NCBI GenBank assembly: GCA_000004695.1
Contig: CM000151.3
Coordinates: 2,176,001-2,240,000 of the forward strand
Direction of reading: 5' to 3'
Source: Dictyostelium discoideum
Lineage: Eukaryota
DNA: 64,000 nucleotides
Positions within the stretch are counted from its first letter, which is position 1. Each line of letters opens with the position of its first letter. Both the position numbers and the translations under genes were made by a program. Shown one piece after another: positions 3,680 through 35,697 of this stretch. The notes beneath the pieces are model-generated. The model worked only from the letters and a program-made list of their open reading frames with translations. It was not told where the DNA came from and ran no database searches.

Positions 3680-3894
3680 TTATTTACCACCAAATTTATT
3701 AAGAAGTATTTTATTGCTATGAATCTTTTTTCTTAACATGAATGCTGCAATTATTAAAGCACAACCAACAACAGGTACAGTGACAGCAACTGGAATTAAC
3801 CAAGGTTTTTTATTTTCTTTGCCACATGAATCTGATGACTTAAAATCTGAATTAATAATAACTGAAAAATCTAAAAATAAAAAAAATCAGTATA

Positions 3895-3925
<31 letters not shown>

Positions 3926-6900
3926 GATAAAAATTTATAAATACCTGGATCTAATAAACATTGATTACAATGAGGCATATCAAGTGAAATTAAAACTTTT
4001 TTATCATCTTTTGAAATTATTTTAGTGATTGTTGTTGTTGGTCTACCATCTGATAACATTTTATCTTGGAATCTACCATAAAGTGTTTTACCATTTTTAC
4101 TAATTTTAAGATAATTAACATTTTGTAAATTATTACTATTTGGTGATGTTTCTACATTTGTATGTTCACTATCTATACAATTATTAATTTTACCTTCAGT
4201 AGTTGAAATATCAGATGACATTTGGATTTGTAAAGTGTTTAGATTACTTTTATAATTCCAATTTGAAACTGATAATGAAAGTTTAAAACCATCTTTACTA
4301 ACTGTGAATTGATTACCTGCAAATGTAAATTCTTTACCATTGTTACTTTCAATATTTTCAATTGTCATTATAATGGTTGCATTATTAACAATTTGAGAAA
4401 ATGTTGAAATTAAAGAACCTGAACCAGTTAGGTTATTTGTAGTATTTGTAATTTTCCAACCACTTTTAAGATTGATTAAAGAGTTTGGTACTTGATTATT
4501 ATTTAAATCAATTTCAGCAATTGAATCAATATAAATTAAATATACAGTATCTTCATTTATAATGGTAGTTGTGCCGTCGGGATTTACCTTTGTTTCAGTT
4601 GGTGGTTTTGATTCACCAACATCCTTTGTTAAACAATCAAGACCAATGAAACCAGAATTACATTTACATTCACCATTTGAATTACAATTACCATTACCAC
4701 TACAATTATTTAAACAATTAATAGTTGATTCTGAATATGGATAAATTGAACCAGACCATGTAATATTATTTTGAATGATTTCAATATTCTTTAAACCAAC
4801 ACCTGGTGGGATTGAAATAACTATTGTTTCATTATCAATTGAGTTTATTGGTATTATTTCATTATCAAATGAAAATTGGAAATATTTATGAACATCACCG
4901 AAAAAACCTGATATTGAAATGTTACCACCAGAAGTGGATGGTACCTTACTTGATGACGATACATAATGATATGGAATTGTACAAATTTCATTGTCTAAGC
5001 TTGTCCATTTATTATTACATGTACATTGTTTAGTAGTTTCATTACAATATCCATTTTCAGGTTGAAGGTATGGATTAATTAAACCGGACCATGTTATACC
5101 ATTTTGGGTTACTTCAGTTTTTACAAAACCGAATCCTTTACCAATTTGAGCATAGATTGTATTTGAATTAATTGAATCTATAAGGGAGCTAACACCATTA
5201 AAGGAAACAGAAATACCCAAATGAATATCACCAAACCAACCATATAATTTGATTGCACCACCAGATTCGACTGGAACTTTGGTTGAGTTTGTTACATTAT
5301 GAATTGGGATTAAACAATCCTCACTAGTCCATTCTTTAAAACATGCACAAACACCCATATGATCATTACAAATTCCATTTGAATTACAAGTTGGATTTTT
5401 ACATGGAACAGGAGTATGAATTAAATTAAAGTAGGTTGTTGTACTTTTATCTTCAACCATAACTGTAAATGATTTATTACCATAGTCAACAATTGGATAA
5501 TTAATATCACAAATTATTTTATAGAATGTAGTTGATTTAACAATACAATCATTATTACCGATCTTAACATTTACAACTGATTTATCATAAGAATAATATT
5601 GACCAGTGATTTCAAATGTTGCATTATTTTGAATGATCGTATCGATTTGTGGTGCATTACCTGCGATTGAAACTGTGAAATTAATTCCTGGTATTAAAAA
5701 TCTAATTTGAATAATATCATATTGATTACTAGCAACACTAAAATATCCTGAAAAACTATCATTTAAATTATTTGAACTAAATTTAATTTCAGGATATGTT
5801 ACAATATTATCTAAATTTGTTCCAATATTTTTTCCAATTAATGTAACTCGTGTTGATGATAAATTTAAAAATTTATAAACATTTATTTGACCTTTTTTTT
5901 TTTTTTTTTTTTTTTTAAAAAATATAAAAATAAAAATTAGTTATTTTTTAAAAATTATATAAAATTAGTTAATTATTATTCTATTCAAACTTACCATCAT
6001 TACAAGTTGAAGTTAAATTATAATTTGAAAAATTATTACCAACTAATCTTCTTTGATATGTTGGATCTTGTAAATAACAATAATAGCAATCTGGTAAAGA
6101 TCCTGATAATAAATTATTTGAAACATCTAAACTAATTGAACACCATGATTCATCGATACTACCAGTTAGTTTGTTATTACTTAAAGTAGCAGTTTGAGTG
6201 AATGCTGATTTTTGTAATGTATCTTTTACAGATGGAAGATTACCACCAATTTCAGAATTTGATAATGAAAATTGTTGGGCTCTTTGAAAAATTGATAGAT
6301 CTGGTAATGTTGAAAAGTTTCCATTTTCAACTATAAAGTTACTACATGTACCTGTTGGTAATTTTGAAAATGGGAAATTACCATTAATATTGAATTTTTT
6401 ACCAGCATTTTTTAAAGAAAATGAAACAAGTGTTTGATTACTATTTGATAAATCAATATAATCAGCTGGTGGACCCCAATTTCCTTGTGTAAAATATCTA
6501 CATTTATTATTATAATTATTATTTTTATTATTATTATTCAAGATAACTTTTTGAAAAAAAAAAAAAATTAAATTAAATAAAAAACTTACATAGTACCCCA
6601 CATTGGATTAATAATATTAGAAAATTCAGTTGGGAAATTTAAAGGATTTGAATTTGAAAAACCCATTCCTATGTAAGTTAATTTACTAAAAGATAGAATG
6701 TTCACTAATGAAGATTGATTAAAATCATTTCCTAAATTGAAGCTTAAAGTCCTTAGAAAAGAAAGTGATGATACATCAGGTATATTTTTAGTATTAAAAA
6801 ATAATGATGAGAGTTTATTACCACTTTGATCACCATCAATTTCAATATCACATATTGCTCCCAAAACAGTGCTTTTTATTTATTTTTTTTTTTTAAAAAG

Positions 6901-7528
6901 AAAATATAAAAAATTGGGATTAATTAATTATATCTAATTGTTTTTTTTTTTTTTTTTTACCAAAAAATTTTAAAAAAAAAAAAAAAAAAAATTTATTAAA
7001 TAAAAATAAACTTACAAACTTGTTACATCTTTCAAATAAGATGCTTTAATATTCATGTGACTATTAATTCCTTCTCCTTGAAAATTAATATAAACATTAT
7101 CATATTTTGGAAGGACTTTATCAAATTCAAAGTATAGTTTATTGTGAATTGATAAATAGCCTATTGAGGGAATTGGAAAGTATGCAAAATTTTGATCTAC
7201 CGAAACTTCTGCCATATATAAATAGTAAAGTTTAGTGAACCCATTAAAATCACTCCAACTTAAAATTTCATTTGTTGTGGATCTCAATGTCCTAAAAAAT
7301 AAAAACAAAAGGAAAAAAAAAAAAAAAGTTAAAAAATACTACTAAATTGAAATTAATTTCTTGTTTTAAACATACAAAGATTCTAAATTTCCGTTGGAAT
7401 TACACCTTGAACCAAAAAATACCCCACTACATATTATTGTTTCAATGTTTGGTATATTAAGTTTTGTGTCATTAACTTTTTGAATAATACTATAAAGATA
7501 TGGTACTTTTTTTAATTTTTAAAATCAG

Positions 7529-7564
<36 letters not shown>

Positions 7565-7684
7565 ATAATAAATATAAAAATAATTATAATAATAGTTACC
7601 CTCTTCAGAAACAAGATCAACAGAGTTTACAAAAGATATAAATGAAATCAAAAGGATAATTAATATTGGTAAATTGTATTTCAT
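3680..7684 (-). CDS. Receptor A: type I membrane glycoprotein with signal peptide, plant-type LRRs, tandem IPT/TIG domains, EGF-like modules, TM and short tail. Seven exons: 7600..7684, 7376..7505, 7016..7291, 6590..6871, 5995..6497, 3945..5891, 3680..3870; about 1137 aa
   Basis: Exon 1 is a signal peptide (MKYNLPILIILLISFISFVNS) followed by a GTAACT donor. A 130-nt mini-exon (..ICSGVFFGSRCNSNGNLESL) is required to restore phase between exon 1 and the 7012..7308 ORF. The 6586..6864 and 5981..6601 ORFs carry LxxLxxLxLxxN repeats (NKLTGSIDESW..SNNLLSGSLPD). The large exon carries repeated IPT/TIG-like modules (ISGFFGDVH...VISIPPGVG..IEIIQNNITWSGSIYPYS) and EGF-like Cys spacing (CSGNGNCNSNGECKCNSGFIGLDC). 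The last exon, after a GTATTT donor at DPG, encodes the TM FSVIINSDFKSSDSCGKENKKPWLIPVAVTVPVVGCALIIAAFMLRKKIHSNK.. All seven junctions are phase-consistent with GT/AG. The acceptor of exon 5 was placed after the Asn-rich read-through (AG at 6498-6499) to restore frame. Confidence 0.7.
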
Positions 7685-8001
7685 TTTTTGTGTAATTTTT
7701 TTTTTTTGAAGTTTTCTGCTTTTGTTTTTTCTTTTTTTCTTTTTTCGAAACCAATCATATTCTAAAAAAAAAAAAAAAAAAGAAGAAAAAATTAAAACAC
7801 TGTTTTTTTTTTAGATTTTTTGTTTTTTTTTATTTTTTTTTAGATTTTTTTTGATATTTTTTTTTTTTTTATTTTATTTTTATTTTTTTTTTAATTTTAT
7901 TTTTTATGGTTTTCAAAATTTTTTTTTTTTAGACTTAAGTACTCTATTTTGGGAGGTCTTTTTTTTTTTTGAAGAGACAAACCTTTGGAATTTGAACGGT
8001 T

Positions 8002-8039
<38 letters not shown>

Positions 8040-8269
8040 AAAATAATAAAAAGAATTAAGTAAAAAAAAAAAAAAAAAATAAAGTTAAAATATAAAATAA
8101 TAAAAACAATTGTTTTTGATCATCAAACCCCTTAAATACACAATTCCTTATTTTTTTATTTTTTATTTTTTTTTTATAATTAATTTCTTGAAAATTTGAT
8201 AATAATAATTTTATAAAAAAAAAAATTTGGGAGTTTTTTTTTTTGAAGACCACCTTTGGAATTTGAAAT

Positions 8270-8319
<50 letters not shown>

Positions 8320-8423
8320 AATAAATAGTTAAAATATTAATAATTTTATTATTTTCCAAAAACAATTTCTTTTGATTATCAAACCCTTGTTTCTCAAATT
8401 TTTTTATATTTTTTTAGGGTCTT

Positions 8424-10820
8424 TTATTTTAAATTATTCATTCTTTTTTTTTCTAAATTTCTTAATAAAAATGCAATTATTAAAGCACAACCAATAACAG
8501 GTACAGTGACAGCAACCGGAATTAACCAAGATTTTTTATTTTCTTTACCACACGAATCTGATGATTTAAAATCTGAATTAATAATAACTGAAAAATCTAA
8601 AAATAAATAAAGCAATAAAAAATTAATATGAAAAAAAAAATATAAAAAAAATAAAAAAAAAAATTTATAAATACCTGGATCCAATAAACATTGATTACAA
8701 TGAGGCATATCAAGTGAAATTAAAACTTTTTTATCATCTTTTGAAATTATTTTAGTGATTGTTGTTGTTGGTCTACCATCTGATAACATTTTATCTTGGA
8801 ATCTACCATAAAGTGTTTTACCATTTTACTAATTTTAAGATAATTAACATTTTGTAAATTATTACTATTTGATGATGTTTCTACATTTGTATGTTCACTA
8901 TCTGTACACTTATTAATTTTATCACTTTCAGTGGTTGAAATATCAGATGACATTTGAATTTGTAAAGTGTTTAAATTACTTTTATAATTCCAATTTGAAA
9001 CTGATAATGAAAGTTTAAAACCATCTTTACTTACAGTAAATTGGTTACCAGCAAATGTAAATTCTTTTCCATTATTACTTTCAATATTTTCAATTGTCAT
9101 TATAATTAAAACATTATTAATATTTTGATAGAAATTGGTAATTGATGAGTTAGAAGTACTATTATCAAATTTCCAACCATTTTTAAGATTAATTAAACAG
9201 TTTGGTACTTGATTATTATTAAAATCAATTTCGGCAATTGAATTAATATAAATTAAATATACAGTATCTTCATTTGTAATGGTAGTCGTACCATTAGGAT
9301 TTATTATTACATGAGTTGGTGGTGTTGGTGACCCTGAATCTTTATTTGTTGAACAATCAAGACCAATATAATTATCATTACATTTACATTCACCATTTGA
9401 ATTGCAGTTTCCATTACCACTACAATTATTTAAGAATTTAATAGTTGATTCTGAATATGGATAAATTGAACCAGACCATGTAATATTATTTTGAATTATT
9501 TCAATACTCCTTGAACCAACACCTGGTGGAATGGTAATTACTATTGTTTCATTATCAATTGATTCAATTATTACTTGTTTATTATTTAATAATACTATAG
9601 GATCATCATGAACATCACCAAACCAACCTGATAAGGTAATATTACCACCAATGTTTGATTGTACAGTACTCGATGATGATAAATAATGATTTGGTATTAA
9701 ACATGGAGAGTATGGATTTAACCTTGTCCATTTACTATAACAATAACAAGACTTGGTTATATCATCACAATAACCATTGATTATTGTTGTGTTTAATAAA
9801 GATAGGGGAAATGTTGTATTATGTCCATTAACTTTTAAATAACCTTTTGAAGAAATACCACCATATACAAATATAGGAATATTAATTTTACATATTATTT
9901 TATCAAATGTACAATATTCAACAATACAATTTAAAATTTCTTTACCATTATCAATTTCAACACTAATTCCAGATTTATCATATGAAAAGTATTCATCATA
10001 AATAAAAATAGTGTCAGCCCCAAATGAATTTGCATTTACTATTGGTGGGCTATTTTTCAATGAAATTGTGAAATTAATACCTGGTACTAAAAATCTAACT
10101 TGAATAATATCATATTTCCATTTACAAATATTCCACTAAAACTATCATTTAAATTGTTTTTTTGAAAAACTATTTCAGGATATGTTACAATATTTATTAA
10201 ATTGAATCCAATATTTTTTCCCATTAATACAACTCCAATATCATTAACAATAATTTTATAAACTGATATTTGTTATATATATATATAATTATTTAAATTA
10301 GTGTTGTCAATTATTTTAAAAAATAATGAAAAAAAAAAACAAACATACCATAGGTACAAGTTGCATTTGTATTGTAATTTGTAATTTATTAAAAGAATAT
10401 TATGATTGATACATAGGGTCATTTTGATAACAATATTTACAATCTGGCAATTGGCCAGTTAATAAATTATTTGAAATATCTAAACTTATTGAGCACCATG
10501 ATTCATTGATGAGAAAATTATTATTTAATGAAGCAAATACAGTAGATTTTGATTTTTGTAGTGAATATTTTACAGATGGAAGATTACCACCAATTCCTAA
10601 ATTTTTTAATGAAATACCTGTACAAGATTCAAATAATTTCATATCTGGTAGTTTGGTATAATCCATAAATAATTCCAAATGAAAGACATGAATTTCCAGG
10701 TAATTTTATACCAATTGGTATACTTCCATTTATATTAAAATAGCAACAATTGTTGTAGGGAATTTTTTTTGAAATTTCGCTTTCTAAACGGCAGTGAATT
10801 TTTACACTAAAATACACTGT
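8424..10820 (-). pseudogene. Receptor B: frameshifted tandem copy of receptor A (3' two-thirds only)
   Basis: The region is about 85-95% identical at nucleotide level to receptor A at the same offset (about 4.75 kb). A 1-nt deletion (ccattttact at 8821-8830 versus ccatttttac at 4101-4110 in A) splits the reading frame into the overlapping ORFs 8424..8789 and 8747..10060. Further indels lie at 10085-10200 relative to A 5690-5800. The LRR exon (10400..10817) has internal stops relative to A. Homology to A ends at about 10740-10820. Confidence 0.6.
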
Positions 10821-10844
10821 TTATGCATGGTGTAAAAATTCACT
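10793..10844. repeat. Perfect 15-bp inverted repeat (agtgaatttttacac / gtgtaaaaattcact) with a 22-nt spacer
   Basis: The sequence 10793..10807 is the exact reverse complement of 10830..10844. It lies where homology between receptor B and receptor A ends. Confidence 0.7.
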
Positions 10845-10967
10845 AAATTTTTTTTTTTTTTATAATTAAATTAAAAAACAATTTATTTAATCAGAACAAT
10901 AAAAAACCAATTTTATTCAGTTATTTGCTTGTTATTTATTTTTTTATAACAAAAAAATTTAGTTGGT

Positions 10968-11019
<52 letters not shown>

Positions 11020-11266
11020 CAATTATTTTTTTCAATTTTTTATTTTATCAATTGTTTCATTTTTGGGGAATAAAATAAAATTGTTTTTATTGAAAAAAAT
11101 TATTAAAAAAAAAAAAAAAAAAAAAAAATTGATAGTTTATATTTTAATTATAATATTCATTATTGTTTATATAATTATTTTTAGTATTTATATTATTTAT
11201 AATTATAAACTCGAGTTAATATTAAATAAGCGAATTAAGACACTAATTATAGTTGACCCACATTTA

Positions 11267-11305
<39 letters not shown>

Positions 11306-11695
11306 TCTATTAACTTATTTTTGTGTCTTCGTTACATAAAAAAAAAATGAAAAAAAAAAATGAAAAAAAAAAAATGAAAAAAAATAAAAAAAATGAAAAA
11401 TAAAAAAAAATAAAAAAAAAAAAAAAAAAAAAATTGGCTCAAATCTAACAATTTAAATTGTTATTTAATTCTTAAACAACAAATAATTGTTTAAAATTAG
11501 TTTTTTTTGATTAAATAAATTGTTTTTAATTTATAAAAAAAAAAAAAAAAATTTTAGTGAGTTTTTACAATTGTAAATAATAAAACCTTTTAATTTAAGC
11601 TGATATTAAAATAATAAATGGTGGATAAAAAAAAAAAAACTGTTTTGGTGGTGAAGATGAATTGATTTTGTAGTTTGCCAATTTTAAATAATTTT

Positions 11696-11726
<31 letters not shown>

Positions 11727-11842
11727 TTTTAATAGAGAGATATAAGAGAGATATGTTAATTATAATAATAATTGGGTTGAAAAAACCATTGATTTTTTTA
11801 ATTTTCTTTTTCTTTTGTAGTTTGCCAATTTTAAATAATTTT

Positions 11843-11878
<36 letters not shown>

Positions 11879-12196
11879 GTTTTTTTTTTTTTTTTTTTTC
11901 TTCATTTAATAACATTCTCTTTTTTTTTTAAAAAATAATATAAATTATAACTTTAAATAAAAATAAATAAATATATTTTAAAATGGCTGAATTGAAAATT
12001 ACATTAATTAATGAAGATGGGGAATCAACAATAAGTGGTAAAGGTAAATTAATTGAAATTATTAATTTCTAAATATTTAATTTTTATTTATATAAATTTA
12101 AAAATCTTACATTTCATTCCATTAATTTCCTCTTCCTTTTTTTAAAAATATAGCTAGTCAAATACCAGCCCCCCCACTTTTCCACCACCATATTTT

Positions 12197-12403
12197 ATGT
12201 ATTTTACCGAATACAAAATTAATGGTAAGCTTTGGGACAAAAATGAATTTCAAATAAAATCAGGTAAAATTGAATTCAACGGAAAAGAATTTGATATTCC
12301 TGAATCCCAGGGTACTTGGATTAAAGATGATGAAGAAAACGTAATCTCTATTAGAATATTTCCAAGTCGACAAGCTAATAGACCTTTTTCCTTTGGTTTT
12401 TAG
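12197..12403 (+). CDS. Small ORF (68 aa, [68 protein letters not shown]); possible short gene, function unknown
   Basis: This non-low-complexity ORF with a balanced composition begins at an ATG and follows a pyrimidine-rich stretch (12121-12190). A possible upstream coding fragment, MAELKITLINEDGESTISGK at 11983..12042, ends at a GTAAAT donor. No phase-compatible acceptor joins it to this ORF, so they are kept separate. Confidence 0.25.
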
Positions 12404-12534
12404 ATCTTAAAAATAGATCTGAAAAATACACAAAGAAAATAAAATTTTGAATAAATTTTATTTTTCAACATAAATTATTTCTTGTTTATAAACAATAAAA
12501 TTTAATTATTTTTTAATAAATAGATAGATAGAAT

Positions 12535-12568
<34 letters not shown>

Positions 12569-13199
12569 TATTACACGTGTATTATTATTATTATTATTAT
12601 TTTTTTAATATTTTTAAAATTTTTATTATTATTGTTACAAACATATCTAATTGATTAATTTTTTTTTTTTTTTTTTAATAGCCTAATTGGGATTTGTTCT
12701 ATTTTATATTTGTATTATAAATAATAAATGATTTGTATTGAGAATAGATCCCAATCCATTTTATTCTGCCTTTTTAATTTTTTTAATTTTCATTTAATTT
12801 TCATTTGCGGAATGCCTCTCAAAAATAAAAATAAAAAAGAAAAAAAATAATTATTAAATTTATTATTATTATTTTTTAATTTGATGTTATAGAAATATTT
12901 AATTTTTTTGTTTTTTTTTTGAAAAGCCACTAATTTATTCATTATCTAACATTGTATACCATTGAGGATTTTCCATTAACGAAAATTCAATGGGAAAATC
13001 ATATGAATTACTATATTGAAAGGTTAAATCTATTGATTCTAAATTTATTAAATGAAAGAATATTTGAAAATGATGATTCATTAAAGTTATTGTGTGTTGA
13101 AAGAAATAAAAATAAAAATAAAATAAAATTAAAAAATAAAATAAAACTTACAGTTCAAAAACATTTGCAAAATTTGAAATTTTTAAATTAAGTATATGA

Positions 13200-13660
13200 T
13201 GATCGAGTAAATAACACTCAAAAGAATAATAATTGGAAAAGGTTGATCAAAAGCCAATGATGAAAAAGTATATATGGCTAAATAAGTAATAGTTGGAATT
13301 GGTTTGTAAATAAAATTTATATCGTCAATATAAACTCTTTGAAGTTTTGAAAAACCATTAAATGGTTTCCAATTAATGCTATTGATGCTGTCAAGAAGGA
13401 AGGTTCCTATTTTTTTAAAAAAAAAAAAAAAAAATTTAATGCTGTTGAAGAACTTGTTATTTCTCTGTGCAAGGTCAAGAAGGAAGGTTCCTATTTTTTT
13501 AAAAAAAAAAAAAAATTTGTAAAAAAAAAAAAAAAAGGAACTTCGAAGGAAAAAAAAAAAAACTTACTTTCACTTATAATTAAATCTACGCATTGTATAT
13601 AACCAATAATTGAAATCAAAAGGAAAATAATTAATGTGTAAATTGATTACATTGTTAATT
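13200..13660 (-). pseudogene. Displaced or degenerate 5' exons of a receptor A/B-type gene (signal-peptide exon relic about 13570..13640, exon-3-like relic about 13205..13431)
   Basis: The minus strand reads (atgtaa)..TLIIFLLISIIGYIQCVDLIISES followed by GTAAGT, which resembles the receptor A signal-peptide exon but has a corrupted start codon. At 13431..13205 it reads KIGTFLLDSINSINWKPFNGFSKLQRVYIDDINFIYKPIPTITYLAIY.., homologous to A exon 3 (..EILSWSDFNGFTKLYYLYMAEVSVDQNFAYFPIPSIGYLSI..). A direct duplication of about 37 nt (13394-13430 and 13474-13510) repeats the start of that exon. No LRR exon is present between these relics and receptor B. Confidence 0.35.
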
Positions 13661-14389
13661 ATTTGAAAAAAAAAAAAAAAAAAAAAAAAATATTTTTAGA
13701 AAATTAATCAAAATAAAAAAAAAAAAAAAAAAAAAACCAATGAGAATTTATGGAAACAAAAAATCAATTGAACCCAAAAATATCTTGATTTTTTTTTTTT
13801 TTGAGAAAATATCCAATAAGAAAAAATGATGTATTATTATAGATATTTTTTTTTTCTTTTGGGAACCAAAAAAAAAATAAAAACAAAAATAAAATAAAAA
13901 ATAAAATAAAAAAAAAAATTAATTATTTTGTTACTTACCTTTCTGGTAACCAAAAGGTTTTGAATAATTCAGAACAATACATTCTTTTATTAAAAATATT
14001 ATTGGAATATTGTAATTAATTTTTTTTTTTTTTTTTTTTTTTTATAATTATAAAGACGAATTTGAAAGTGAATTTGAATTTGAATTACATTTTGGTATTA
14101 AAAATATTAAAAAAAAACCCTTTGTTTCGCTCGATAATTATTTTAATTTTTTATTTTTTTTTATTTTTATTTTTTTTTTATTTTTATTTTTTTTATTTTT
14201 TTTTAATTATTTTTTTTTTTTTTAAAATTTATTATATTAAAAAAAAAAAAACCATTGACACCACCACTAAAAGAGTGAATTAATAAAATATATTGATGTC
14301 AATAATAATAACGAATTTAAAAATATCTTTTTTATACTATTACTATTTATAGTATAAAGCAATAAAATATAATCACATATTAAGCAATA

Positions 14390-14429
<40 letters not shown>

Positions 14430-14438
14430 AAAGTCAAT

Positions 14439-17253
<2,815 letters not shown>

Positions 17254-26727: not shown

Positions 26728-29700
26728 TAGAATTACCATCATTAGTTTCACCAATTAATAAAAATCCAAGCGCAAATAAATGGATAATGACAAAATCAAG
26801 ATTATTAAATCAAATACCTACATTGGCTGTTTATTTATCAAATTTAAATGGGTTCATATATCCAACAAATAATAATAACCCACAAATAAATAGTTTATTG
26901 ATAACTTCGAATGGATTTATACAAATGGATAAAAACACATTTTTATTTAATTATTATTATTTATCGTTTTTAGGCAAAACAGATGATATAAAATGGTTAT
27001 ACTTTAATAATTCAATTATTTCTGACTCAATTATGTTTAAAAGCCCAGTTTCTGAAAGTATGTATATATATTTTTTTTTTTTTTTTTTTTTTCCAATTTT
27101 TATTATTTATTAATAATTATAAAAAAAAATATTTTAAAAAATTATTAGACTTTGGCAAATCAATGATAAGTGTATCTAGTTATCCTCAAGCGATAGATTG
27201 TAAAAATTTTAAAGTTTGTTATTTGGTTATAAATTCAACAATAGCTTTTGTGCCACTTTTGGGATTTATAGAGGATAGTACTGGAACAAGAGATGCAATG
27301 AATATCTATCCACTCTATGGAAGCCCAAATAATTCAAAACATATAGCCTATTTTAATTTTAATGATGATAATAAAAATGTTTATTCAGAATATTTTGTAA
27401 TGGGTTACTCTTCATATGAAAGTGTACAGAAATATAGAGCAAGTAGAAATATTACTAGTTTGGTTCCACCAGCGATTTCAAATGTTAAATCCATTCAAAT
27501 ATCCTATGCTCATTATGATCCATATTCATTAACCATTGCATATTTTGACAATGATAATCAAAGTCAAGTAACAAGTTTAGCTTTTGGTCCTTTCATTCAA
27601 TATGATAGAGTAACCTATCCGTTTGGCTTTTTAAAAGGAAATTCAAAAAACTATTCCTATGCCATTGGAATGGTTCTTCCAATATATTCTGATTTGCGAT
27701 CTTATTCTTTTATACCTCCCAGTGGAATAACCATTAAAATGGTGAGTTCAGTATATACTGGCGAAATATCAACACCAATTATATCATTGGTATCATTCAT
27801 TCCAAAGGTTGGTGATGGTTTAAAAACAATTTTAAGAATAACAGCGTCTGATAAAGTTTTTGGTTTATTTTATATGGAAACTCAACCATCAGGAATTAAA
27901 ATCATTGGAAGTGATTTGGTTGATGGTAATAAATTTAATGGTACCTATGAAAAATTAATTGATTTTTCAATTTATCCACCAATAACTTCAATTACAGCTT
28001 ATAATTTATATAACGCAGAATCAATTACTTTCACTATGAATAATCATCAATATCCAAGTAATATTCCATCAATTTCAGATATAACATTATTTAAATTTAA
28101 GAAACAAACGGTAGACCTTTCAACTGACAGTTTCATCAATACAATCTATATGAATTACTCAAATGCAAATATAAATTATAGACCAGGTTTTAAATTAATA
28201 ACAACATCAGAGATTGCAAGAGATTTTCAATGGTATCGTAATTATGATTACCTTGAATGGGATGAAACACTTCAACTTTTTAAATTAGACTTTTATATGC
28301 CACCAAGATTATTTACAGGTATTTTAGAGTATAGATTTAATTTTGCTTATGTAGATTTAGATCCAAATTCTTTATCAAATTTGTTAGTAGATAATTCAAT
28401 AAATGATAATAACGCAATACTTTCAGTTACTTGTGATTTTGCAGATGAAATGCCACCAATTGTAACAAAAATAAAATCTAGTGCTCAATCTTTTGATTTA
28501 TTATGGGATATTACATTTAGTGATGATATCAATGGTATTGAATCAATTAATGTTACAATTTCTAGTGAGTTTGATTTAGTTGGTGAAACCTTTACATTTT
28601 TCCCATCACTTGATGATAATAATAAATTGGTTACAGTAAGAATAAACAAAACAATTTATCCATATTCAAAGAGTCAAACTTATAGAATTTCAGAGATTGC
28701 AACACGTGATACAAGTGGACATTATGCCAATAGTACCTTTGAACCAAGCTTTCAAAATATTCTTAATCCATGGAGATTAACATATGATGATATTTCAAAT
28801 TTTGATTTTACCATTTCCAATGAATTAAATATTGAAGATAATGTACCAATTATTAATTCAGTTTTATTATCAACAAATTCTATTGATATTTCTACAGCAA
28901 ATAGAGAGTTAACTGTAACATTCAGTGTTTCAGATGATACAGGTTTTTCAAATAATAATCCAATAGTTTATTTTCAAACTAGAATGCTAGAAACTATTAG
29001 TGTAGTTGCAAATAAAACCAATTGTTCATCAGTTACTACTTGTAATTATCGAGTCGATCTACAATTTCCATTTTTATTTGGCTATCCAGAACCAATTTTA
29101 TGTTCAATCTATAGAATTGAAGATGTTTTTTTCAATTTTAATAGTTATAATTATCATAAAAATACATTAATTCATACAAGTAATAGTGTGTTAGAAACTA
29201 AACCAATTATTGAATCAACATCATCAATTACTCGAAATGGTGGTGATCTTATATTGAATGGTCATTGGTTTGGAATTGATGAAAATGCAATAACCATTAT
29301 GATAAGATATCTTGATTTACCAAATGAAAATATTACATCATCTTCATTTATTTATCAATTTGGTAGTGAAATTAAATTTAAAAAAATTAAAGCAAACAAT
29401 GGTGATTCAGTTTATATTAGATTAAAAGTTGGAAATCAACTTTCAAATGAATTTAAAGTTGTACCAATTCCATTAAACAATTGTCCAAATAATTGTAATC
29501 AAGATAAAGGGCAAGGTGTTTGTCAATCGGATGGTAGTTGTAAATGTTCAGATTCTAAATGGTTTGGTGTTGATTGTTCAAAACAATTTCATTACATTTC
29601 ATCGGTTTTACCATCAACAACCTCTGGTGGTGAAGCAAGTTTCATAGGTCTTTTTAGTGATTCACATGATAATATTTCAATTTCAATTGGTGGTTTAGAT

Positions 29701-30660
29701 TGTCCAATTTTATTAAATACTTCAAGTCTAATTAAATGTAATGCATCAGCAGGTATTGGTATTAAAAATGTAACATTGACACAAAATGGTTATACATTCA
29801 CTGCTCTTGATATTTATAAATATATTGAAATCAGCACATCTTTACAATGTCCAAATAAATGCTCAAATAATGGTATTTGTAATAGTACAACAGGTATTTG
29901 TAATTGTAAGATTGGTTTTGGTTTATATGATTGTAGTGCTTTAATTAATCTAGATAATGGTAATGGTGGAGGTACAAATACAACAATTGATACAGGTTCA
30001 AGTTCAACTAATTTCACAAATTCTGAAACCAATTTTCAAATTTCAATTAAATCATTAATAGAGGTTGATATTAATAATAATGTTATTAAATCATATTCAT
30101 TATTAAAAAATTGGTCATTTAATAAAACTGATAATGAATTTGAACCAAATAAATATATATTAAAACAAATTTTAAATAGTAATAATTCATCAGAATCAGA
30201 ATCAGAATCAAATGATAAAAGTTTTATAATTACTTCGATAATTGAAGAGATTAAAGATAAAAATGGTAAAGAATTTATTTTTGCAGGTTCAAGTTTTATA
30301 GTTCCAAGTGGTTCAATTAAATTTACAATTTCAATTTTAAATTATACATATCAAAGTAATTTAAATTCATTGAAATTGGAATTAATTTCATTGACTGATA
30401 ATAATAATAAAAGAACTGATTGTAATTCTAAATCTATTGAAATCGATACAAGTAATACGAATAATTTATCAACATTTAATTATATTAGAATCTCAAGGAA
30501 TAATAAAATTTTAGAAGGTAGATTTATAAATAAAGTTATGTCAGATGGTAGATCAACATTCTTAACTTCAACTACTAGAAATGATTCAAATTCAATTATA
30601 ACAACTTTAAATTTACCTCATTGTGTATCCGAATGTATAATTGATCCAGGTATGTTTATA

Positions 30661-30697
<37 letters not shown>

Positions 30698-30935
30698 GAT
30701 ATTAACTTTTTTTTTTTTTTTTTTTTTACATTTAGACTTTTCAATTTTAATTTCAAATGATTTTAAATCTAGTTGTGAAGATAATTCTCGAAAATGGTTT
30801 TTGCCAGTAGTAATTACTGTACCAATTTTAGGTTGTTTTTTATTGTTTGTTTTAGGTGCAATAATCTACAAGAAAAGTACAAGTGTAAAAGTTTTTGTTC
30901 ATGGTACTAAATTAAAGAAAATTAATGCTTTTTAA
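26089..30935 (+). CDS. Receptor C: signal peptide, N-terminal beta-rich domain, IPT/TIG-like repeats, EGF-like modules, TM and tail. Five exons: 26089..26155, 26290..26607, 26731..27057, 27149..30649, 30736..30935
   Basis: Exon 1 encodes MKSFHLIFSYFFISFIIINKVY followed by a GTATGT donor. Exons 2-3 carry the NCTYSYL and CSG motifs and end with the same CSG|GTAA donor as receptor D. The large exon has EGF-like segments (CPNNCNQDKGQGVCQSDGSCKCSDSKWFGVDC; CPNKCSNNGICNSTTGICNCKIGFGLYDC) and a C-terminal region homologous to A/B (KEFIFAGSSFIVPSGSIKFTISILNYTYQSNLNSL..GRFINKVMSDGRSTF..LPHCVSECIIDPG|GTATGT). The last exon encodes the TM FLPVVITVPILGCFLLFVLGAIIYKK. All phases are consistent. Confidence 0.7.
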
Positions 30936-31278: not shown

Positions 31279-34200
31279 ATGAAAAATAATGTTTTATTAA
31301 TTATCTTAATATTTTCTCTTTTTTTATCAGTTAATTGTAATTTATTATTATTTATTTTTTTTTTTTTTTTTTTTTTTATTATTCAAAATATATTAACAAA
31401 AATAAATTAATTACAGCATTAGACACATTATTATTAGAATCAAAACAATTAATTTCAAAAACTTATTCAATTAATTCAAGTAATTGCACGTATGAATATC
31501 TATTTGTATTTGAAGCATTTGAATTTTCTTCACTATCAAGCTCTAATCAAGTTAGCTATTATGGAGGAGATTCAATTGTAAATAATCAAGTTTCAATAAG
31601 AGTTTCTAATATATCAATAAGGGTTGGTTCAATGGATATGTATATTTCAATTCAAACTAAATCAAATAAAACATTTAATTTATTTATTTTATTAGACGAA
31701 TCATGTTCTGGTAAGTTAAAAAAAAAAATAAAAAAAAAATAAAAAAATAAAAAAAATTATTTAAAAAACTAATAATAATTAATTATAATTAAAAAAAACA
31801 AAAGAATTACCAAATAATCTTCAACCAAAATATTATTTTAATAAGTGGATAAATATTAAATCAAGATTATTAAAAGATCCCCCAAAACTTACGATGTATT
31901 TTGAAAAATTAAATGGTATTGGTAACCCTTCAAATTTTTTAATAACTGGAAATTTAATTAAAAATACATCTACATTCTATCAGAGAGAGTTTGAAACAAA
32001 GATATTGGAATTTCCCTATACTTATACAACTGGAATTAATAATATTAAAACTGTTGAATGGTATCATTTCAATTCAATTGGGAATATAGTCGAATCAAAA
32101 GTATTCTCACTCCCTGTTTCTAGAGGTAAATTTAAAACATTTTAAAAAAAGAAAAAATATATATATATATTAATATTTTTTTTTTTTTTGATTCAATTAA
32201 AAATAGCACCAATTGTTTCTTCTTTTATTCATTTTCCAAACACTCTTTATTGGTCAATGCATGATAATATTATTTTTACATTCAATGTAACAAATACTGT
32301 AGATGAATATGTATTCGTTGGATTTAATTCATCAAATGTCAATCCAAACTATACTGATGCAATGAACATGTATCCAATTTACGGAAATCCTAAAAATGGT
32401 CAATATATGGGTTTTATAAATAATTTCAACGATTATGAAAATATTGAAACTTATTGGAGTGTTAATTGTTATGATTTATCAAATTCTATTAGAATCTATT
32501 ATACAAATAATAGAACTCTTTCATCATTAAAAATTCCACCAACTTCAAATATTTCCACTTATTCTTTATCTTCAAGACCATTCCAAACAAAAGAAAAAAC
32601 ATATTATATTGGAGAATATTATTTTCCTGTTCAAAGTAGTCCAGTTACAAAGTTTTATGTTGAACCATTTATTTTTATAGAAAAAATTAAATTCCCATTT
32701 GGTTGTACAAATGGAAATTCATTCAACTACACATATATTTTTAATAATTTAGTAACACAATATGTACCATTATCAAATTATCAAGTTATTTTTCCATCGA
32801 ATGGATATACTTATACCGACTATCCAGTTTATAATTCAAATACATCAAAACCAATTATAGAATCATTTTCATTTACACATATCGAAGGAATGAAAGCAGT
32901 ATTTAGAGTAACAATCGTTGATAAATATATTGGATTTTCATATGCAACTACATCTCCTTCAAATGTTAGAATTACAACAAGTGATTTAATATCAGGCAAT
33001 CAATATAATGGTACCTATGAAAAATTAATTGATTTTTCAAATCGTCGTCCAATTGCTTCAATAACAACATTTAATCAATTATTATTATCGTCTATAACTT
33101 TTGTACCATTAGAACATCAATTTCCAACTGAACTTCCACTAATTAAAGACATTACAACTTTTAAATTTGCTTCGTCATTAATAGACCTTTCAACCGATGG
33201 TTTTTTGAATACAATCTATATGAATTATTCAAATTCAAATATAAATTATAGACCAGGTTTTAAATTAATAACAACATCAGAGATTGCAAGAGATTTTGAA
33301 TGGTATCGTAATTATGATTACCTTGAATGGGATGAAACACTTCAACTTTTTAAATTAGACTTTTATATGCCACCAAGATTATTTACAGGTAATTTAGAGT
33401 ATAGATTTGGTTTTGGTTATTATGATTTAGATCCAAATACTTTATCAACCTTATTAGTAAACACTTCAATTAATATGAACAATCCAGTACTTTCAGTAAT
33501 TTCAGATTATGCTGATGAAATGCCACCAATTTTAATTGATTTTACTGTTCCTTCTTTTGTTATTGTAAACCCAACTCAAACATCTGTAATTAGTATTATG
33601 CTTACATTCAGTGATCCGATTAATGGTATTGAATCAATTAATGTAACCATTGTAAGTGAATATGATCTAATTGGTGAAAAATTTACTTTTTACCCTCCAT
33701 TAAGTAATAATAAAAAGGTAATTTTTTCAATTGAAAAGATAATTGAAGAGGGTTTTTGTAAAAATCAAACCTTTAGAATCTCTGAAATTGCAACTCGTGA
33801 TACAAGTGGGCACTATGCAAATAGTACCTTTGAAGCCTCTCACCAAAATATTCTTAATCCATGGATTCAACAATTTTATAATTTCAACTCAATTAATTGT
33901 ATAGTTAAGTGTCAACAAGATGATGATAATATCCCACCAAAACTTTCAGAATTTAAACTATCAAAAACAACAATTGATATTGGATCAATGGATAGAGATT
34001 TAATTGTAACATTTTCAGTTTATGATTTAGACAATAGAATATTTTTAAAAGATTCGCCAACAATTTATTTTACTACAAGCCTTTTTGATCAATTTTCATT
34101 GAAAGCTGAACTTTTTTCATGTGTAAATGATAGAAAAAATTGTACATATATTACACCTGTCAACATTCCATTTATGTTTGGGTATCCTGATCCAATTATT

Positions 34201-35697
34201 GTTTCAATCTATGGTATTCAAGATATATTTTTCAATTTTAATGGTTATAGTAGTAAAGAATTATTGAAAATGAATTTTAATCCAGTAATTGAAATTGAAA
34301 CAAGTAGAATTCCAATTATTGAAACCAATGGATCAATAATTACAAATCAAGGTGGTGATAATTTTTTAATTGGTCATTGGTTTGGTGATAATTCATCAAT
34401 TGTTCAATTAGCAATTATTTATTGTAATAATACTGAAATAATTAAAGATTTCATTTATAAAACTGGTAGTTTAATTAAATTCAAAACGATTAAACCAACA
34501 AATTATTCAATTAATTTTCAAGTTTCAGTTGATGGAATTTCCTCTTCAATCTATTCAATTCTACCTATTGGTGCTTCATTTAGTGATAATTGTATTTATG
34601 TAGAACCAACTAATTCACCAACTGATTTACCAACTAATTCACCAACTGATTTACCAACTAATTCACCAACTAATTCACCAAAAACTTGTTTATCGAATTG
34701 TAGTGGTAATAAACAAGGATATTGTAATAATGGAGGTTGTATTTGTTATTCACCATGGATTGGTTCGGATTGTTCCTCAAAAATTATTGATGATATAAAC
34801 CCACCAATCATTAAGAATGATACATCAACAACAATGACAACAAATAATACAAATAATGAAATATATTCAAGTTTAATTTCAATTATATCATTAAGAGAAC
34901 TTAATTTTGTTGGACAGGTTATACAAACTTATAATTTAACAGATTGGACTAAAATCAATAATTCAAACTATACTTCATCAACAAGATTCCAATTTAAAAA
35001 TGAAATTTTAAATCTAAAAACAATGAACAAAACTGAAATAAATGCTTATATTGAATATTTTGAAAAAGAAAAGAATATTACATTTGGTGATCAAGAATTT
35101 AAAATGATGAAATCATCAATTAAATATACAATTGAAATTGGTTCATATGATTTTTCATCTAAAATTAATAATCTTCAGTTGGTAATGTCTGCATCTTTTA
35201 TCTCATCTTCAGAGGAAGATGTTTGTTCAAATAAAGAATTTGGAAATTCAACAGACGATTATTCCAATTATTTAAAAATTCAAGTTAATGATCATTCTCT
35301 CTATGGTAGATTTATTAAATATGCAATTGTTGATAATAGGACAAGCTCTATAATTAATGAACAATTAGATTCATTAATGAACCCAATTTCAACTTCAAAT
35401 AAACAACAAACTTTTATTGGTATAACTTTACCAAATTATGAAAATTCTGTCGTTATTGATCCAGATTTCCAATTATTACTTGATATTGGAACCACTGCTA
35501 AAAACAATGACAATTCAATTTGTAATCATAATTCAAATAATCATGGGCTCAGTTCTTCACAATTGGCTGGTATAATAATTGGATCAATTTGTTTTTTTGC
35601 AATTATTATTGTTTCAATAATCTATACAATTTTAAAAAAAAGAAAAAATATTCAGTTCTTAATCAAATTAAAGAAAATTGAAAAATATAATAATTAA
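31279..35697 (+). CDS. Receptor D: tandem paralogue of C with the TM encoded inside the large exon. Four exons: 31279..31336, 31417..31710, 31805..32125, 32207..35697
   Basis: The signal peptide is MKNNVLLIILIFSLFLSVN followed by GTAATT. Exon 2 ends at ..DESCSG|GTAAGT and exon 3 ends at ..SLPVSR|g GTAAAT. The large exon shares with C the blocks GTYEKLIDFS and YRPGFKLITTSEIARDF.WYRNYDYLEWDETLQLFKLDFYMPPRLFTG, has (PTNS/PTDL)n tandem repeats and EGF-like spacing (CLSNCSGNKQGYCNNGGCICYSPWIGSDC), and ends with the TM AGIIIGSICFFAIIIVSIIYTILKKRKN. All junctions are phase 1 and consistent. Confidence 0.7.

What the first reader, a model, noticed from the sequence alone, without database searches (positions are those of the whole stretch)
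8424..13660. Receptor B is a decaying tandem copy of A whose 5' exons appear displaced about 2.4 kb behind a breakpoint marked by a 15-bp inverted repeat
B matches A at a constant offset of about 4.75 kb, including 3' flanking motifs. It has a 1-nt deletion at 8821-8830 that splits the frame, and several indels near 10085-10200. Homology to A stops at about 10740-10820, exactly at a perfect 15-bp inverted repeat (10793..10807 / 10830..10844) that is conspicuous in this AT-rich DNA. The signal-peptide and exon-3-like relics reappear only at 13205..13640, with a corrupted ATG, an internal 37-nt direct duplication and no LRR exon. The intervening 10.86-13.2 kb is unrelated sequence containing small ORFs (11983, 12197). 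This looks like an insertion or rearrangement that separated the gene's 5' end, possibly a transposon footprint or a hairpin-mediated event.
Basis: partly seen in the sequence, partly recalled or inferred. Interest (0 to 1): 0.5.

Follow-up and report, generated by a model that had tools for sequence, protein, structure and literature searches.

The report
Receptor pseudogene split by inserted DNA
In the Dictyostelium discoideum lab-strain lineage (AX4/AX2), one of two neighbouring ComC-type surface-receptor genes is a dead gene split by 2.2 kb of foreign DNA (an inverted-repeat-bounded AT-rich segment plus a stray copy of a gp24 adhesion gene), whereas wild isolates and sister species keep this gene intact; it is an ordinary, well-explained pseudogene.

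Summary
The core observation is real. The window is D. discoideum AX4 chromosome 2. Gene A (3680-7684, minus strand) is an intact 7-exon, 1137-aa ComC-family receptor. B (8424-13652, minus strand) is its upstream tandem paralogue and is dead.

Two wild D. discoideum isolates carry an intact 1029-aa B. Aligned to them, AX4 has 2,189 bp (10743-12931) in place of 156 bp at the intron-4/exon-5 boundary. That is why the 5' exons lie about 2.2 kb away.

B is not a recent decaying copy of A. Intact B orthologues exist in at least four sister taxa, and A and B group by paralogue.

The inserted block has three parts:
- 87 bp of unknown origin.
- An ORF-less, ~740-bp AT-rich segment bounded by ~100-bp imperfect terminal inverted repeats.
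- A 1.3-kb diverged, frameshifted copy of a gp24/csb adhesion-gene unit.

B also has a stop at codon 2, exon deletions, a 42-nt duplication and several frameshifts. An independent AX2 assembly has the same structure, so it is not an assembly artefact.

How the block got there is unresolved: transposon-associated insertion or capture of ectopic DNA during break repair. Interest is low to moderate.

The parts
3680..7684 (-). Gene A (context). Intact ComC-family receptor, 1137 aa, with 7 exons: 7684-7600, 7505-7376, 7291-7016, 6871-6590, 6497-5995, 5891-3945, 3870-3680.
   Evidence: The splice model has canonical GT..AG junctions and an open frame. It is 100% identical to the annotated AX4 protein P0001. 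Pfam finds LRR_ComC, Beta-sand_ComC_2nd, EGF and ComC_SSD.
8424..10742 (-). B pseudogene, 3' body: the remainder of exon 5, exon 6 and exon 7. Lesions: in-frame stop near 10400, 9-nt deletion, 10-nt frameshifting deletion at ~10105-10114, and a 1-nt deletion at ~8825.
   Evidence: Colinear with intact B in L001 (11183-13711) at 90%. tblastn of the intact protein P0008 shows the stops and frame changes. Indels are listed. Pfam finds ComC_SSD and EGF on the longest ORF.
10743..12931 (.). Inserted block of 2,189 bp. It replaces 156 bp of the intact allele (the 3' part of intron 4 plus about the first 95 bp of exon 5).
   Evidence: Synteny with L001 and L004 and base-level junction alignments. The AX2 assembly L003 has an identical structure.
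10743..10829 (.). 87 bp of unknown origin at the left edge of the block. It contains an isolated third copy of the TIR tip (10792-10806, inverted orientation).
   Evidence: It has no significant similarity to B intron 4 / exon 5 from any strain, or to A. The tip copy was found with 1 mismatch.
10793..10844 (.).
   Evidence: It is unique in its class within the 64-kb window.
10830..11570 (.). ORF-less, AT-rich segment of ~740 bp bounded by imperfect terminal inverted repeats (10831-10933 and 11475-11569). It is a candidate non-autonomous DNA transposon, or alternatively an old inverted duplication.
   Evidence: Local alignment scores 115 against 38 +/- 14.5 for AT-rich controls. With homopolymers collapsed it scores 88 against 30.7 +/- 10.6, with 77% identity over 105 columns. 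No other copy was found in ~190 kb of Dictyostelium sequence.
11571..12877 (+). Ectopic, diverged copy of a gp24/csb gene unit with its flanks. Exon 1 is 11983-12043 and exon 2 is 12154-12403. The two exons are out of frame unless one C is added to the C7 run at 12169-12175.
   Evidence: Colinear at 70-81% with the csbC-type unit in L002 (11276-12630) and with units in L006. tblastn with csbC, gp24A and gp24B hits both exons. The frameshift-repaired protein is 79% identical to AX4 csbC and matches Pfam Dicty_CAD at 1.1e-36. The C7 run is identical in AX2.
12932..13652 (-). B pseudogene, 5' relic. Exon 1 (13652-13567) has ATG followed by TAA. Only the first ~25 nt of exon 2 remain. Exon 3 (~13234-13389) has a 15-nt and a 1-nt deletion. 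Exon 4 is truncated (12947-13100) and its splice donor is mutated (GTAAG->GTTAG).
   Evidence: Base-level alignment to intact B in L001, 9980-11030, and tblastn.
13390..13515 (.). Perfect 42-nt direct duplication (13390-13431 and 13474-13515) of the intron-1/exon-2 junction. It accompanies the deletion of most of exon 2 and intron 2.

Best explanation
WHAT IT IS. B is the non-functional allele, carried by the NC4-derived lab lineage (AX4 and AX2), of a conserved ComC-family transmembrane receptor gene. The protein has a signal peptide, LRR, beta-sandwich, EGF/TIG, supersandwich and TM regions. B lies in tandem upstream of its paralogue A.

SHOWN.
- The gene is split by an insertion-deletion. 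156 bp across the intron-4/exon-5 boundary are replaced by 2,189 bp of ectopic DNA.
- That DNA consists of 87 bp of unknown origin, a ~740-bp ORF-less AT-rich segment bounded by ~100-bp imperfect inverted repeats, and a ~1.3-kb diverged copy of a gp24/csb adhesion-gene unit that is itself frameshifted.
- The '15-bp inverted repeat' is the outer tip of the left inverted repeat paired with a third, isolated tip copy 24 bp away.
- At least eight further lesions ensure that no full-length protein can be made. They include a stop at codon 2, loss of most of exon 2, exon 3/4 deletions, a splice-donor mutation, an internal stop and two frameshifts.

INFERRED.
- The block arrived in a single non-homologous event that also deleted target DNA. 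It was either capture of ectopic DNA during double-strand-break repair or an aberrant event involving the termini of a TIR element.
- The block was already old and diverged when it arrived: the repeat arms are ~13-23% diverged, and the csb copy is >=19% from any known unit.
- B itself died comparatively recently, because its large exon still shows the substitution pattern of a constrained gene.

The feature has no function of its own. It is a fossil of a structural mutation in a locus that turns over structurally in several lineages.
For: - Identity of the locus: gene A is 100% identical to an AX4 chromosome-2 protein.
- Intact B (1029 aa) lies directly upstream of A in two wild D. discoideum assemblies. 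Intact orthologues exist in D. firmibasis, D. citrinum, D. dimigraforme and 'cf. discoideum'.
- Colinear synteny places both B fragments on one gene, with 156 bp replaced by 2,189 bp.
- The independent long-read AX2 assembly is 99.5% identical over 17.7 kb. Within 8400-13692 it differs only in homopolymer lengths and 2 SNPs (strain identity inferred from bioRxiv 10.1101/2025.08.01.668227).
- Lesion catalogue.
- TIR pair. All three tip copies lie within 780 bp.
- csb unit. csb homology in other strains starts exactly at the outer TIR tip, and the tip is absent from those strains.
- Relative-rate test on exon 6: the AX4 branch has 26 substitutions (12 synonymous, 13 non-synonymous, 1 stop; 14 at third positions). 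The intact ACTFIR branch has 48 (25/23; 27 at third positions).
Against: - The mechanism of insertion is not demonstrated. No target-site duplication or terminal repeats flank the TIR segment or the whole block.
- No second copy of the TIR segment was found.
- The donor locus in the AX4 genome could not be retrieved.
- One event versus several successive events cannot be distinguished.
- The 5' relic is much more damaged than the 3' body. That sits uneasily with 'recent death', unless deletions cluster there or the 3' half has been kept similar by conversion from A.
- The substitution counts are small.
Confidence: 0.85

Rival explanations
1. The TIR-bounded segment is a genuine non-autonomous DNA transposon, and it caused the rearrangement. 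Two elements, or element ends, sat tail-to-head in B (tip at 10792-10806, then tip at 10831). Aberrant 'reversed-ends' or one-ended transposition, or gap repair after excision, then deleted target DNA and brought in the flanking csb unit from the element's previous location.
For: The ~100-bp inverted repeats are well above background. Three copies of the same 15-nt terminus lie within 780 bp and none elsewhere in the window. Homology to csb units begins exactly at the outer tip of the right repeat. The insertion is accompanied by a flanking deletion. D. discoideum is known to carry TIR transposon families: Tdd, DDT and thug (PMC5633606).
Against: There is no target-site duplication (sequence read directly). 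No other copy was found in ~190 kb of Dictyostelium DNA. There is no transposase and no transposon gene in the window. The arms are ~13-23% diverged, so the element was not young. The csb unit lies outside the repeats, not between them. The 50 bp next to the third tip do not resemble the element's own subterminal sequence.
Confidence: 0.3
2. The block is simply a contiguous piece of another AX4 locus, most likely spacer plus one unit of the csb tandem array that lies ~65-75 kb away in a wild isolate. It was copied or moved into a double-strand break in B by non-homologous or synthesis-dependent repair. The inverted repeats are an old inverted duplication within that spacer, with no role or only an incidental one.
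For: 1.3 kb of the block is colinear with a whole csb unit including its flanks. csb arrays vary in unit number and contain relics, and a dispersed csb gene exists in another lineage. The junctions show a deletion and no TSD or terminal repeats, as expected for end-joining. Both the csb copy and the repeat arms look older than the death of B.
Against: The csb arrays of the two wild isolates contain nothing like the TIR segment or the 87 bp. The AX4 array itself could not be examined. The clustering of three identical termini is not explained.
Confidence: 0.45
3. One reading: B is a recent duplicate of A that is decaying, and the hairpin itself caused the breakage.
For: A and B are 85% identical over the 3' 1.3 kb. 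The hairpin is thermodynamically real and unique in the window.
Against: B orthologues are conserved and intact across species estimated at 50-100 My of divergence (the dating is the preprint's). Paralogues group by type, not by genome. The 5' halves of A and B share only ~40-46% amino-acid identity. The hairpin lies within the inserted DNA, 50 bp from the junction, and is absent from the intact target sequence, so it cannot have pre-existed in B to break it.
Confidence: 0.03
4. Assembly artefact: the AX4 reference mis-joins two loci here.
For: The region is extremely AT-rich with long homopolymers, which are hard to assemble.
Against: An independent Nanopore + Illumina assembly of a related lab strain has the same structure base for base, apart from homopolymer lengths and 2 SNPs.
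Confidence: 0.01

Closest known systems
ComC-family EGF-like receptors of Dictyostelium (Pfam LRR_ComC, Beta-sand_ComC_2nd, ComC_SSD)
   Same: A and the intact B orthologue have the family's LRR domain and supersandwich domain, together with EGF/TIG units, a signal peptide and a single TM segment. AX4's B fragments retain ComC_SSD and EGF.
   Different: AX4's B cannot encode the protein. B has one EGF+TIG unit. A has two in AX4 and three in wild isolates.
Polymorphic (segregating) unprocessed pseudogene caused by an insertion-deletion
   Same: Introns are retained, the position is syntenic, there are multiple disabling lesions, and intact alleles exist in conspecific isolates.
   Different: The disrupting DNA is neither a recognised retroelement nor a recognised transposon. 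It is a composite of a TIR-bounded spacer-like segment and an ectopic gene unit.
gp24 / contact-sites-B genes csbA, csbB, csbC (PF05720 Dicty_CAD). From my own knowledge, unchecked: described as tandemly repeated genes by Loomis and Fuller, 1990.
   Same: The two-exon structure, ~101-103 codons, 79% amino-acid identity to csbC, and flanks colinear with a csb array unit.
   Different: It lies outside the array, inside another gene, on the opposite strand to that gene. It has a frameshift in a C7 run. It is >=19% diverged in DNA from any unit I could examine.
Non-autonomous TIR DNA transposons / MITE-like elements (in Dictyostelium: the DDT, Tdd and thug families)
   Same: Short, ORF-less and AT-rich, with ~100-bp terminal inverted repeats and sharply defined tips.
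   Different: No target-site duplication, no second copy found, and no sequence comparison with DDT/Tdd/thug consensus sequences was possible. Membership is unproven.
Structural turnover at Dictyostelium cell-surface receptor loci (tgrB/C locus, bioRxiv 10.1101/2025.08.01.668227)
   Same: Tandem surface-receptor paralogues show lineage-specific loss, fragments and pseudogenes. Here AX4 lost B, ACTFIY lost A, and ACTFIW carries extra fragments.
   Different: This is a different gene family and a much smaller scale. No evidence of hypermutation or balancing selection was examined.

Membership tests
ComC family (gene A and intact B) | LRR_ComC domain (PF24141) | tested here: met
   A scores 6.4e-37. 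Intact B (P0008) scores 1.8e-30. In AX4's B the domain is fragmented across 12947-13389 and 10382-10742.
ComC family (gene A and intact B) | ComC supersandwich domain (PF22933) | tested here: met
   A scores 3.7e-47. P0008 scores 9.2e-46, and the AX4 B ORF 8747-10060 scores 1.1e-28.
Unprocessed, polymorphic pseudogene (AX4 B) | Disabling mutations in a gene whose orthologue or allele is intact elsewhere | tested here: met
   Stop at codon 2, an internal stop, two frameshifts, exon deletions and a 2.19-kb insertion. Intact alleles exist in ACTFIR and ACTFIW.
Unprocessed, polymorphic pseudogene (AX4 B) | Introns and syntenic position retained (not a retrocopy) | tested here: met
   Introns 1, 3 (partly), 5 and 6 are colinear with L001. 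The flanking genes are the same.
Unprocessed, polymorphic pseudogene (AX4 B) | No functional transcript or protein | not testable with these tools
   No expression data were available. Inferred from the lesions.
TIR (class II) DNA transposon / MITE | Terminal inverted repeats | tested here: met
   10831-10933 vs 11475-11569. Score 115 against 38 +/- 14.5 for controls, and 88 against 30.7 +/- 10.6 with homopolymers collapsed.
TIR (class II) DNA transposon / MITE | Target-site duplication flanking the termini | tested here: not met
   The flanks are ...GCATGG | element | ATTGTAAA..., with no direct repeat (sequence read directly).
TIR (class II) DNA transposon / MITE | Multiple dispersed copies in the genome | tested here: inconclusive
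   None in the rest of the window or in ~130 kb of loci from other strains. The whole AX4 genome could not be searched.
TIR (class II) DNA transposon / MITE | Similarity of the termini to a known family (DDT, Tdd, thug) | not testable with these tools
   No repeat library was available. The primary paper is not held, and a full-text search for the tip sequence found only an unrelated primer.
Helitron | 3' hairpin followed within ~10-12 nt by CTRR; 5' TC; insertion between A and T | tested here: not met
   A hairpin is present, but no CTRR follows it on either strand within 12 nt (sequence read directly).
gp24/csb family (the copy in the block) | Dicty_CAD domain (PF05720) and two-exon structure | tested here: met
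   Pfam 1.1e-36 on the frameshift-repaired translation. Exons match csbC/gp24A/gp24B at 76-95% and 64-86%.
gp24/csb family (the copy in the block) | Intact reading frame | tested here: not met
   Exon 1 ends in phase 1, and no AG acceptor restores the exon-2 frame. One extra C in the C7 run at 12169-12175 would restore it. The run is identical in AX2.

The most novel reading that the evidence does not exclude
The ~740-bp TIR-bounded segment belongs to an uncharacterised non-autonomous DNA-transposon family of D. discoideum. Aberrant transposition of its ends (tail-to-head termini 24 bp apart) carried a neighbouring gp24/csb adhesion-gene unit into a ComC receptor gene. If so, transposon ends can shuttle whole cell-adhesion gene units between surface-protein loci in social amoebae.
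Probability: 0.1. Interest if true: 0.5.

Novelty: new member of a known kind. Interest (0 to 1): 0.22.

Why it matters
**Practical point.** The reference strain AX4, and AX2, lack a functional copy of a ComC-family surface receptor that wild D. discoideum isolates and sister species retain. Work on cell-cell communication or adhesion in lab strains is therefore done in a natural null background for this gene. Automated annotation splits the corpse into spurious short genes: 105-aa and 632-aa models in the AX2 annotation.

**Evolutionary point.** The A/B locus loses different members in different lineages. AX4 lost B, one 'cf. discoideum' isolate lost A, and another isolate carries extra fragments. 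It is a small example of receptor-locus turnover.

**Possible extra.** The inserted block might lead to an undescribed TIR element, but that remains to be shown.

Tried and rejected
1. Retrieving the AX4/AX2 csb array to find the donor of the block. csbC, gp24A and gp24B are not in the gene-position index. My last homology search, with the flanking proteasome subunit, returned only unrelated fragments. This is a dead end.
2. Looking for more copies of the TIR segment or its tip. None were found in the rest of the window, in L001-L007, or in the literature. The metagenome scan gave 120 chance 17-mer hits with only homopolymer extensions.
3. The primary paper on Dictyostelium repeats (Glockner 2001) is not held, so I could not compare with DDT/Tdd/thug termini.
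4. Rfam and tRNA scans of 8000-14500 and 1-25000 found nothing. A tRNA-targeted retroelement context is therefore not indicated.
5. Testing whether the 87 bp at 10743-10829 are degraded exon 5. They are not.
6. Testing whether the TIR sequence is native csb upstream sequence. It is not: homology starts at the outer tip.
7. Terminal repeats or a TSD for the whole block. None were found.
8. Helitron reading of the hairpin. Rejected, because there is no CTRR.
9. Looking up the block's 68-aa csb ORF in other assemblies. It is not on record.
10. Whole-element palindromy of the TIR segment. The inner halves score only ~2.8 sd above AT-rich controls and the signal is driven by A/T runs. I do not claim it.

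Full report
**Where we are.** The window is AT-rich dictyostelid DNA. A seven-exon model on the minus strand (7684-3680) gives an open 1137-aa protein with canonical splice sites. It is 100% identical to an annotated D. discoideum AX4 protein on the 8.48-Mb chromosome 2. Pfam places it in the ComC family: LRR_ComC, a ComC beta-sandwich, EGF units and the ComC supersandwich domain.

**Checking the observation.**
- BLASTN confirms the A/B similarity: 8458-9778 matches A 3729-5055 at 84.6%, and 9860-10614 matches A 5479-6270 at 67.9%.
- The offset drops from 4729 to about 4381, because A has one more EGF+TIG unit than B (translations).
- The 1-nt deletion near 8825 and the indels near 10100 are real.
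- The perfect 15-bp inverted repeat exists. It is the only non-homopolymer perfect inverted repeat of its class in 64 kb, and it folds as a DNA hairpin with z = -4.
- tblastn with A, and later with intact B, shows that the 5' relic is larger than described. Besides exon 1 and exon 3 there is a damaged exon 4 at 12947-13100.
- A base-level alignment shows that the ATG is intact but codon 2 is TAA. Most of exon 2 and intron 2 are deleted next to a perfect 42-nt direct duplication. Exon 3 has a 15-nt and a 1-nt deletion. Intron 3 and the start of exon 4 are gone, and the exon-4 donor is mutated.

**B is an old paralogue, dead only in this lineage.**
- The homology search returned a second gene of ~1000-1040 aa next to the A orthologue in another D. 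discoideum strain and in D. firmibasis, D. citrinum and D. dimigraforme. A 'cf. discoideum' isolate (ACTFIY) also has an intact B-type gene.
- The locus from strain ACTFIR (L001) has an intact 1029-aa B directly upstream of A. A second wild isolate, ACTFIW, has the same.
- B-B and A-A comparisons between strains (~95% and ~91%) exceed all A-B comparisons (~85%). The 5' halves of A and B share only ~40-46% amino-acid identity.
- So B is not a recent copy of A. Only its AX4 allele is decayed.

**The rearrangement.**
- Alignment of L001 to the window is colinear: L001 5401-10185 = window 18195-13466; 10402-10675 = 13378-13121; 10859-11027 = 13099-12932; and 11183-13711 = 10742-8302.
- Thus 156 bp of the intact allele (the 3' part of intron 4 and the first ~95 bp of exon 5) are replaced in AX4 by window 10743-12931, which is 2,189 bp.
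- It is not an assembly error. The assembly with locus tag ACTFIT matches the window at 99.5% over 17.7 kb, and within 8400-13692 it differs only in homopolymer lengths and two SNPs.
- The source preprint sequenced AX2-214 and reports 99.5% identity to AX4. That ACTFIT is AX2, and that ACTFIR/ACTFIW are the wild isolates CR116C/OT3A, is my inference from that text.

**What the block is.**
- The right arm of the 15-bp repeat continues into a ~100-bp match (10831-10933) with an inverted copy at 11475-11569. The score is 115 against 38 +/- 14.5 for AT-rich control pairs. With homopolymers collapsed it is 88 against 30.7 +/- 10.6, and 16 of 5909 controls reach it.
- These repeats delimit a ~740-bp ORF-less segment at about 11% G+C.
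All three tip copies in the window lie within 780 bp.
- From 11571 onward the block is colinear, at 70-81%, with one unit of the gp24/csb tandem array of strain ACTFIR, including upstream and downstream flanks. In that strain the array lies ~65-75 kb from the ComC locus on the same contig. The block is also colinear with units in ACTFIW.
The frameshift-repaired protein is 79% identical to AX4 csbC and matches Dicty_CAD at 1.1e-36.
- As it stands, the csb copy is out of frame at a C7 run that is identical in AX2.
- In the other strains, csb homology begins exactly at the outer tip of the right repeat, and the tip is absent there.
- The 87 bp at 10743-10829 resemble nothing I could test.

**Timing.** I used ACTFIY as outgroup for the large exon.
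- The AX4 branch carries 26 substitutions: 12 synonymous, 13 non-synonymous and 1 stop, with 14 at third positions.
- The intact ACTFIR branch carries 48: 25 synonymous and 23 non-synonymous, with 27 at third positions.
- B therefore evolved under constraint for most of the AX4 branch, and its death is comparatively recent.
- The repeat arms (~13-23% diverged) and the csb copy (>=19% from any known unit) look older. This suggests the block was already an old piece of DNA when it arrived.
- The counts are small, and conversion from A could blur this inference.

**Mechanism.**
- Shown: one gene, interrupted by an insertion with a concomitant deletion, with no target-site duplication and no terminal repeats of the block.
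- Inferred: a non-homologous event. I rank two sub-hypotheses:
  1. Capture of a contiguous ectopic fragment (spacer plus csb unit) at a break.
  2. An event driven by the termini of a TIR transposon. The tail-to-head termini and the exact coincidence of the csb boundary with a tip speak for this. The lack of a TSD, of other copies and of any transposase speaks against it.
- The hairpin cannot have caused breakage of B, because it lies inside the inserted DNA and is absent from the intact target.
- I could not search the whole AX4 genome or a repeat library, so this remains open.

**Context and verdict.**
- The window contains ordinary genes and no transposon genes. There are no Rfam hits and no tRNAs near the feature.
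- The A/B locus is structurally unstable across lineages. ACTFIY retains only the last ~440 bp of A, and ACTFIW has ComC fragments between B and A. A varies between 1137 and 1257-1260 aa.
- The finding is a correctly spotted, now largely explained, lineage-specific pseudogene.
- Its interest lies in the practical fact that lab strains are null for a receptor that wild strains keep, and in a possible lead to an undescribed TIR element.

Noticed in passing
window 3945-5891 (A exon 6); L001 14781-19242; L004 15699-20176: Gene A varies in its number of EGF+TIG repeat units between strains. It is 1137 aa in AX4/AX2 (two units) and 1257/1260 aa in the two wild isolates (three units). B has one unit.
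   Followed up: partly
L007 10001-14527: In the 'cf. discoideum' isolate ACTFIY, only a B-type gene remains. A is deleted except for its last ~440 bp, and the annotation fuses that remnant onto B (giving the A-type tail ...LNKFGGK). This is the reciprocal of the AX4 situation.
   Followed up: partly
L004 14330-14970: Isolate ACTFIW has about 0.9 kb of extra DNA between B and A. It is made of ComC gene fragments: pieces matching A exon 4/5 and the supersandwich region, at up to 97% identity.
   Followed up: no
window 8062-8209 vs 8304-8472 (also 7940-8000 vs 8225-8275): The A-B intergenic spacer contains a diverged tandem duplication of roughly 240-285 bp (69% identity). It includes the repeated motifs 'gatYatcaaaccc' and 'tttgggag...cctttggaatttgaa'.
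   Followed up: no
window 11666-11730 and 11813-11877: There is a 98%-identical direct repeat with 147-bp spacing in the upstream region of the ectopic csb copy. It is a local tandem duplication; I did not check the other strains' csb units for a second copy.
   Followed up: no
window 11564-11577: The junction between the right TIR tip and the csb unit forms a perfect 14-nt palindrome, TTTACAATTGTAAA. The csb flank (TTGTAAAT) itself resembles the TIR tip (TGTAAAAA). This could be a target preference or chance.
   Followed up: no
window 12918-12936: The right junction of the block reads TGAAAAGCCAC|TAATTT, which weakly resembles the TIR tip TGTAAAAATTCACTAAATTT in direct orientation (about 12 of 16 positions, with two gaps). 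It is too weak to interpret, but it sits exactly at the junction.
   Followed up: no
L002 8501-12630; L006 9807-18370; L005 10001-10413: The gp24/csb array differs greatly between strains: three units in ACTFIR and at least six units or relics in ACTFIW. ACTFIY has a csb gene on a different contig from its ComC locus. csb proteins diverge unusually fast (66-69% identity between strains whose other genes are ~90% identical).
   Followed up: partly
window 27163-30699 and 32188-35697 (+ strand): Two further large genes have a ComC supersandwich domain combined with DUF7743/DUF7035/DUF7034 instead of the LRR domain. A TIG-domain gene lies at 46634-49312 (- strand). The window is rich in surface-receptor-like genes.
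   Followed up: no
L003 3766-4813 and 7042-9284: The AX2 annotation calls the two halves of the dead B gene as separate protein-coding genes of 105 aa and 632 aa. These are spurious gene models produced by the pseudogene.
   Followed up: no
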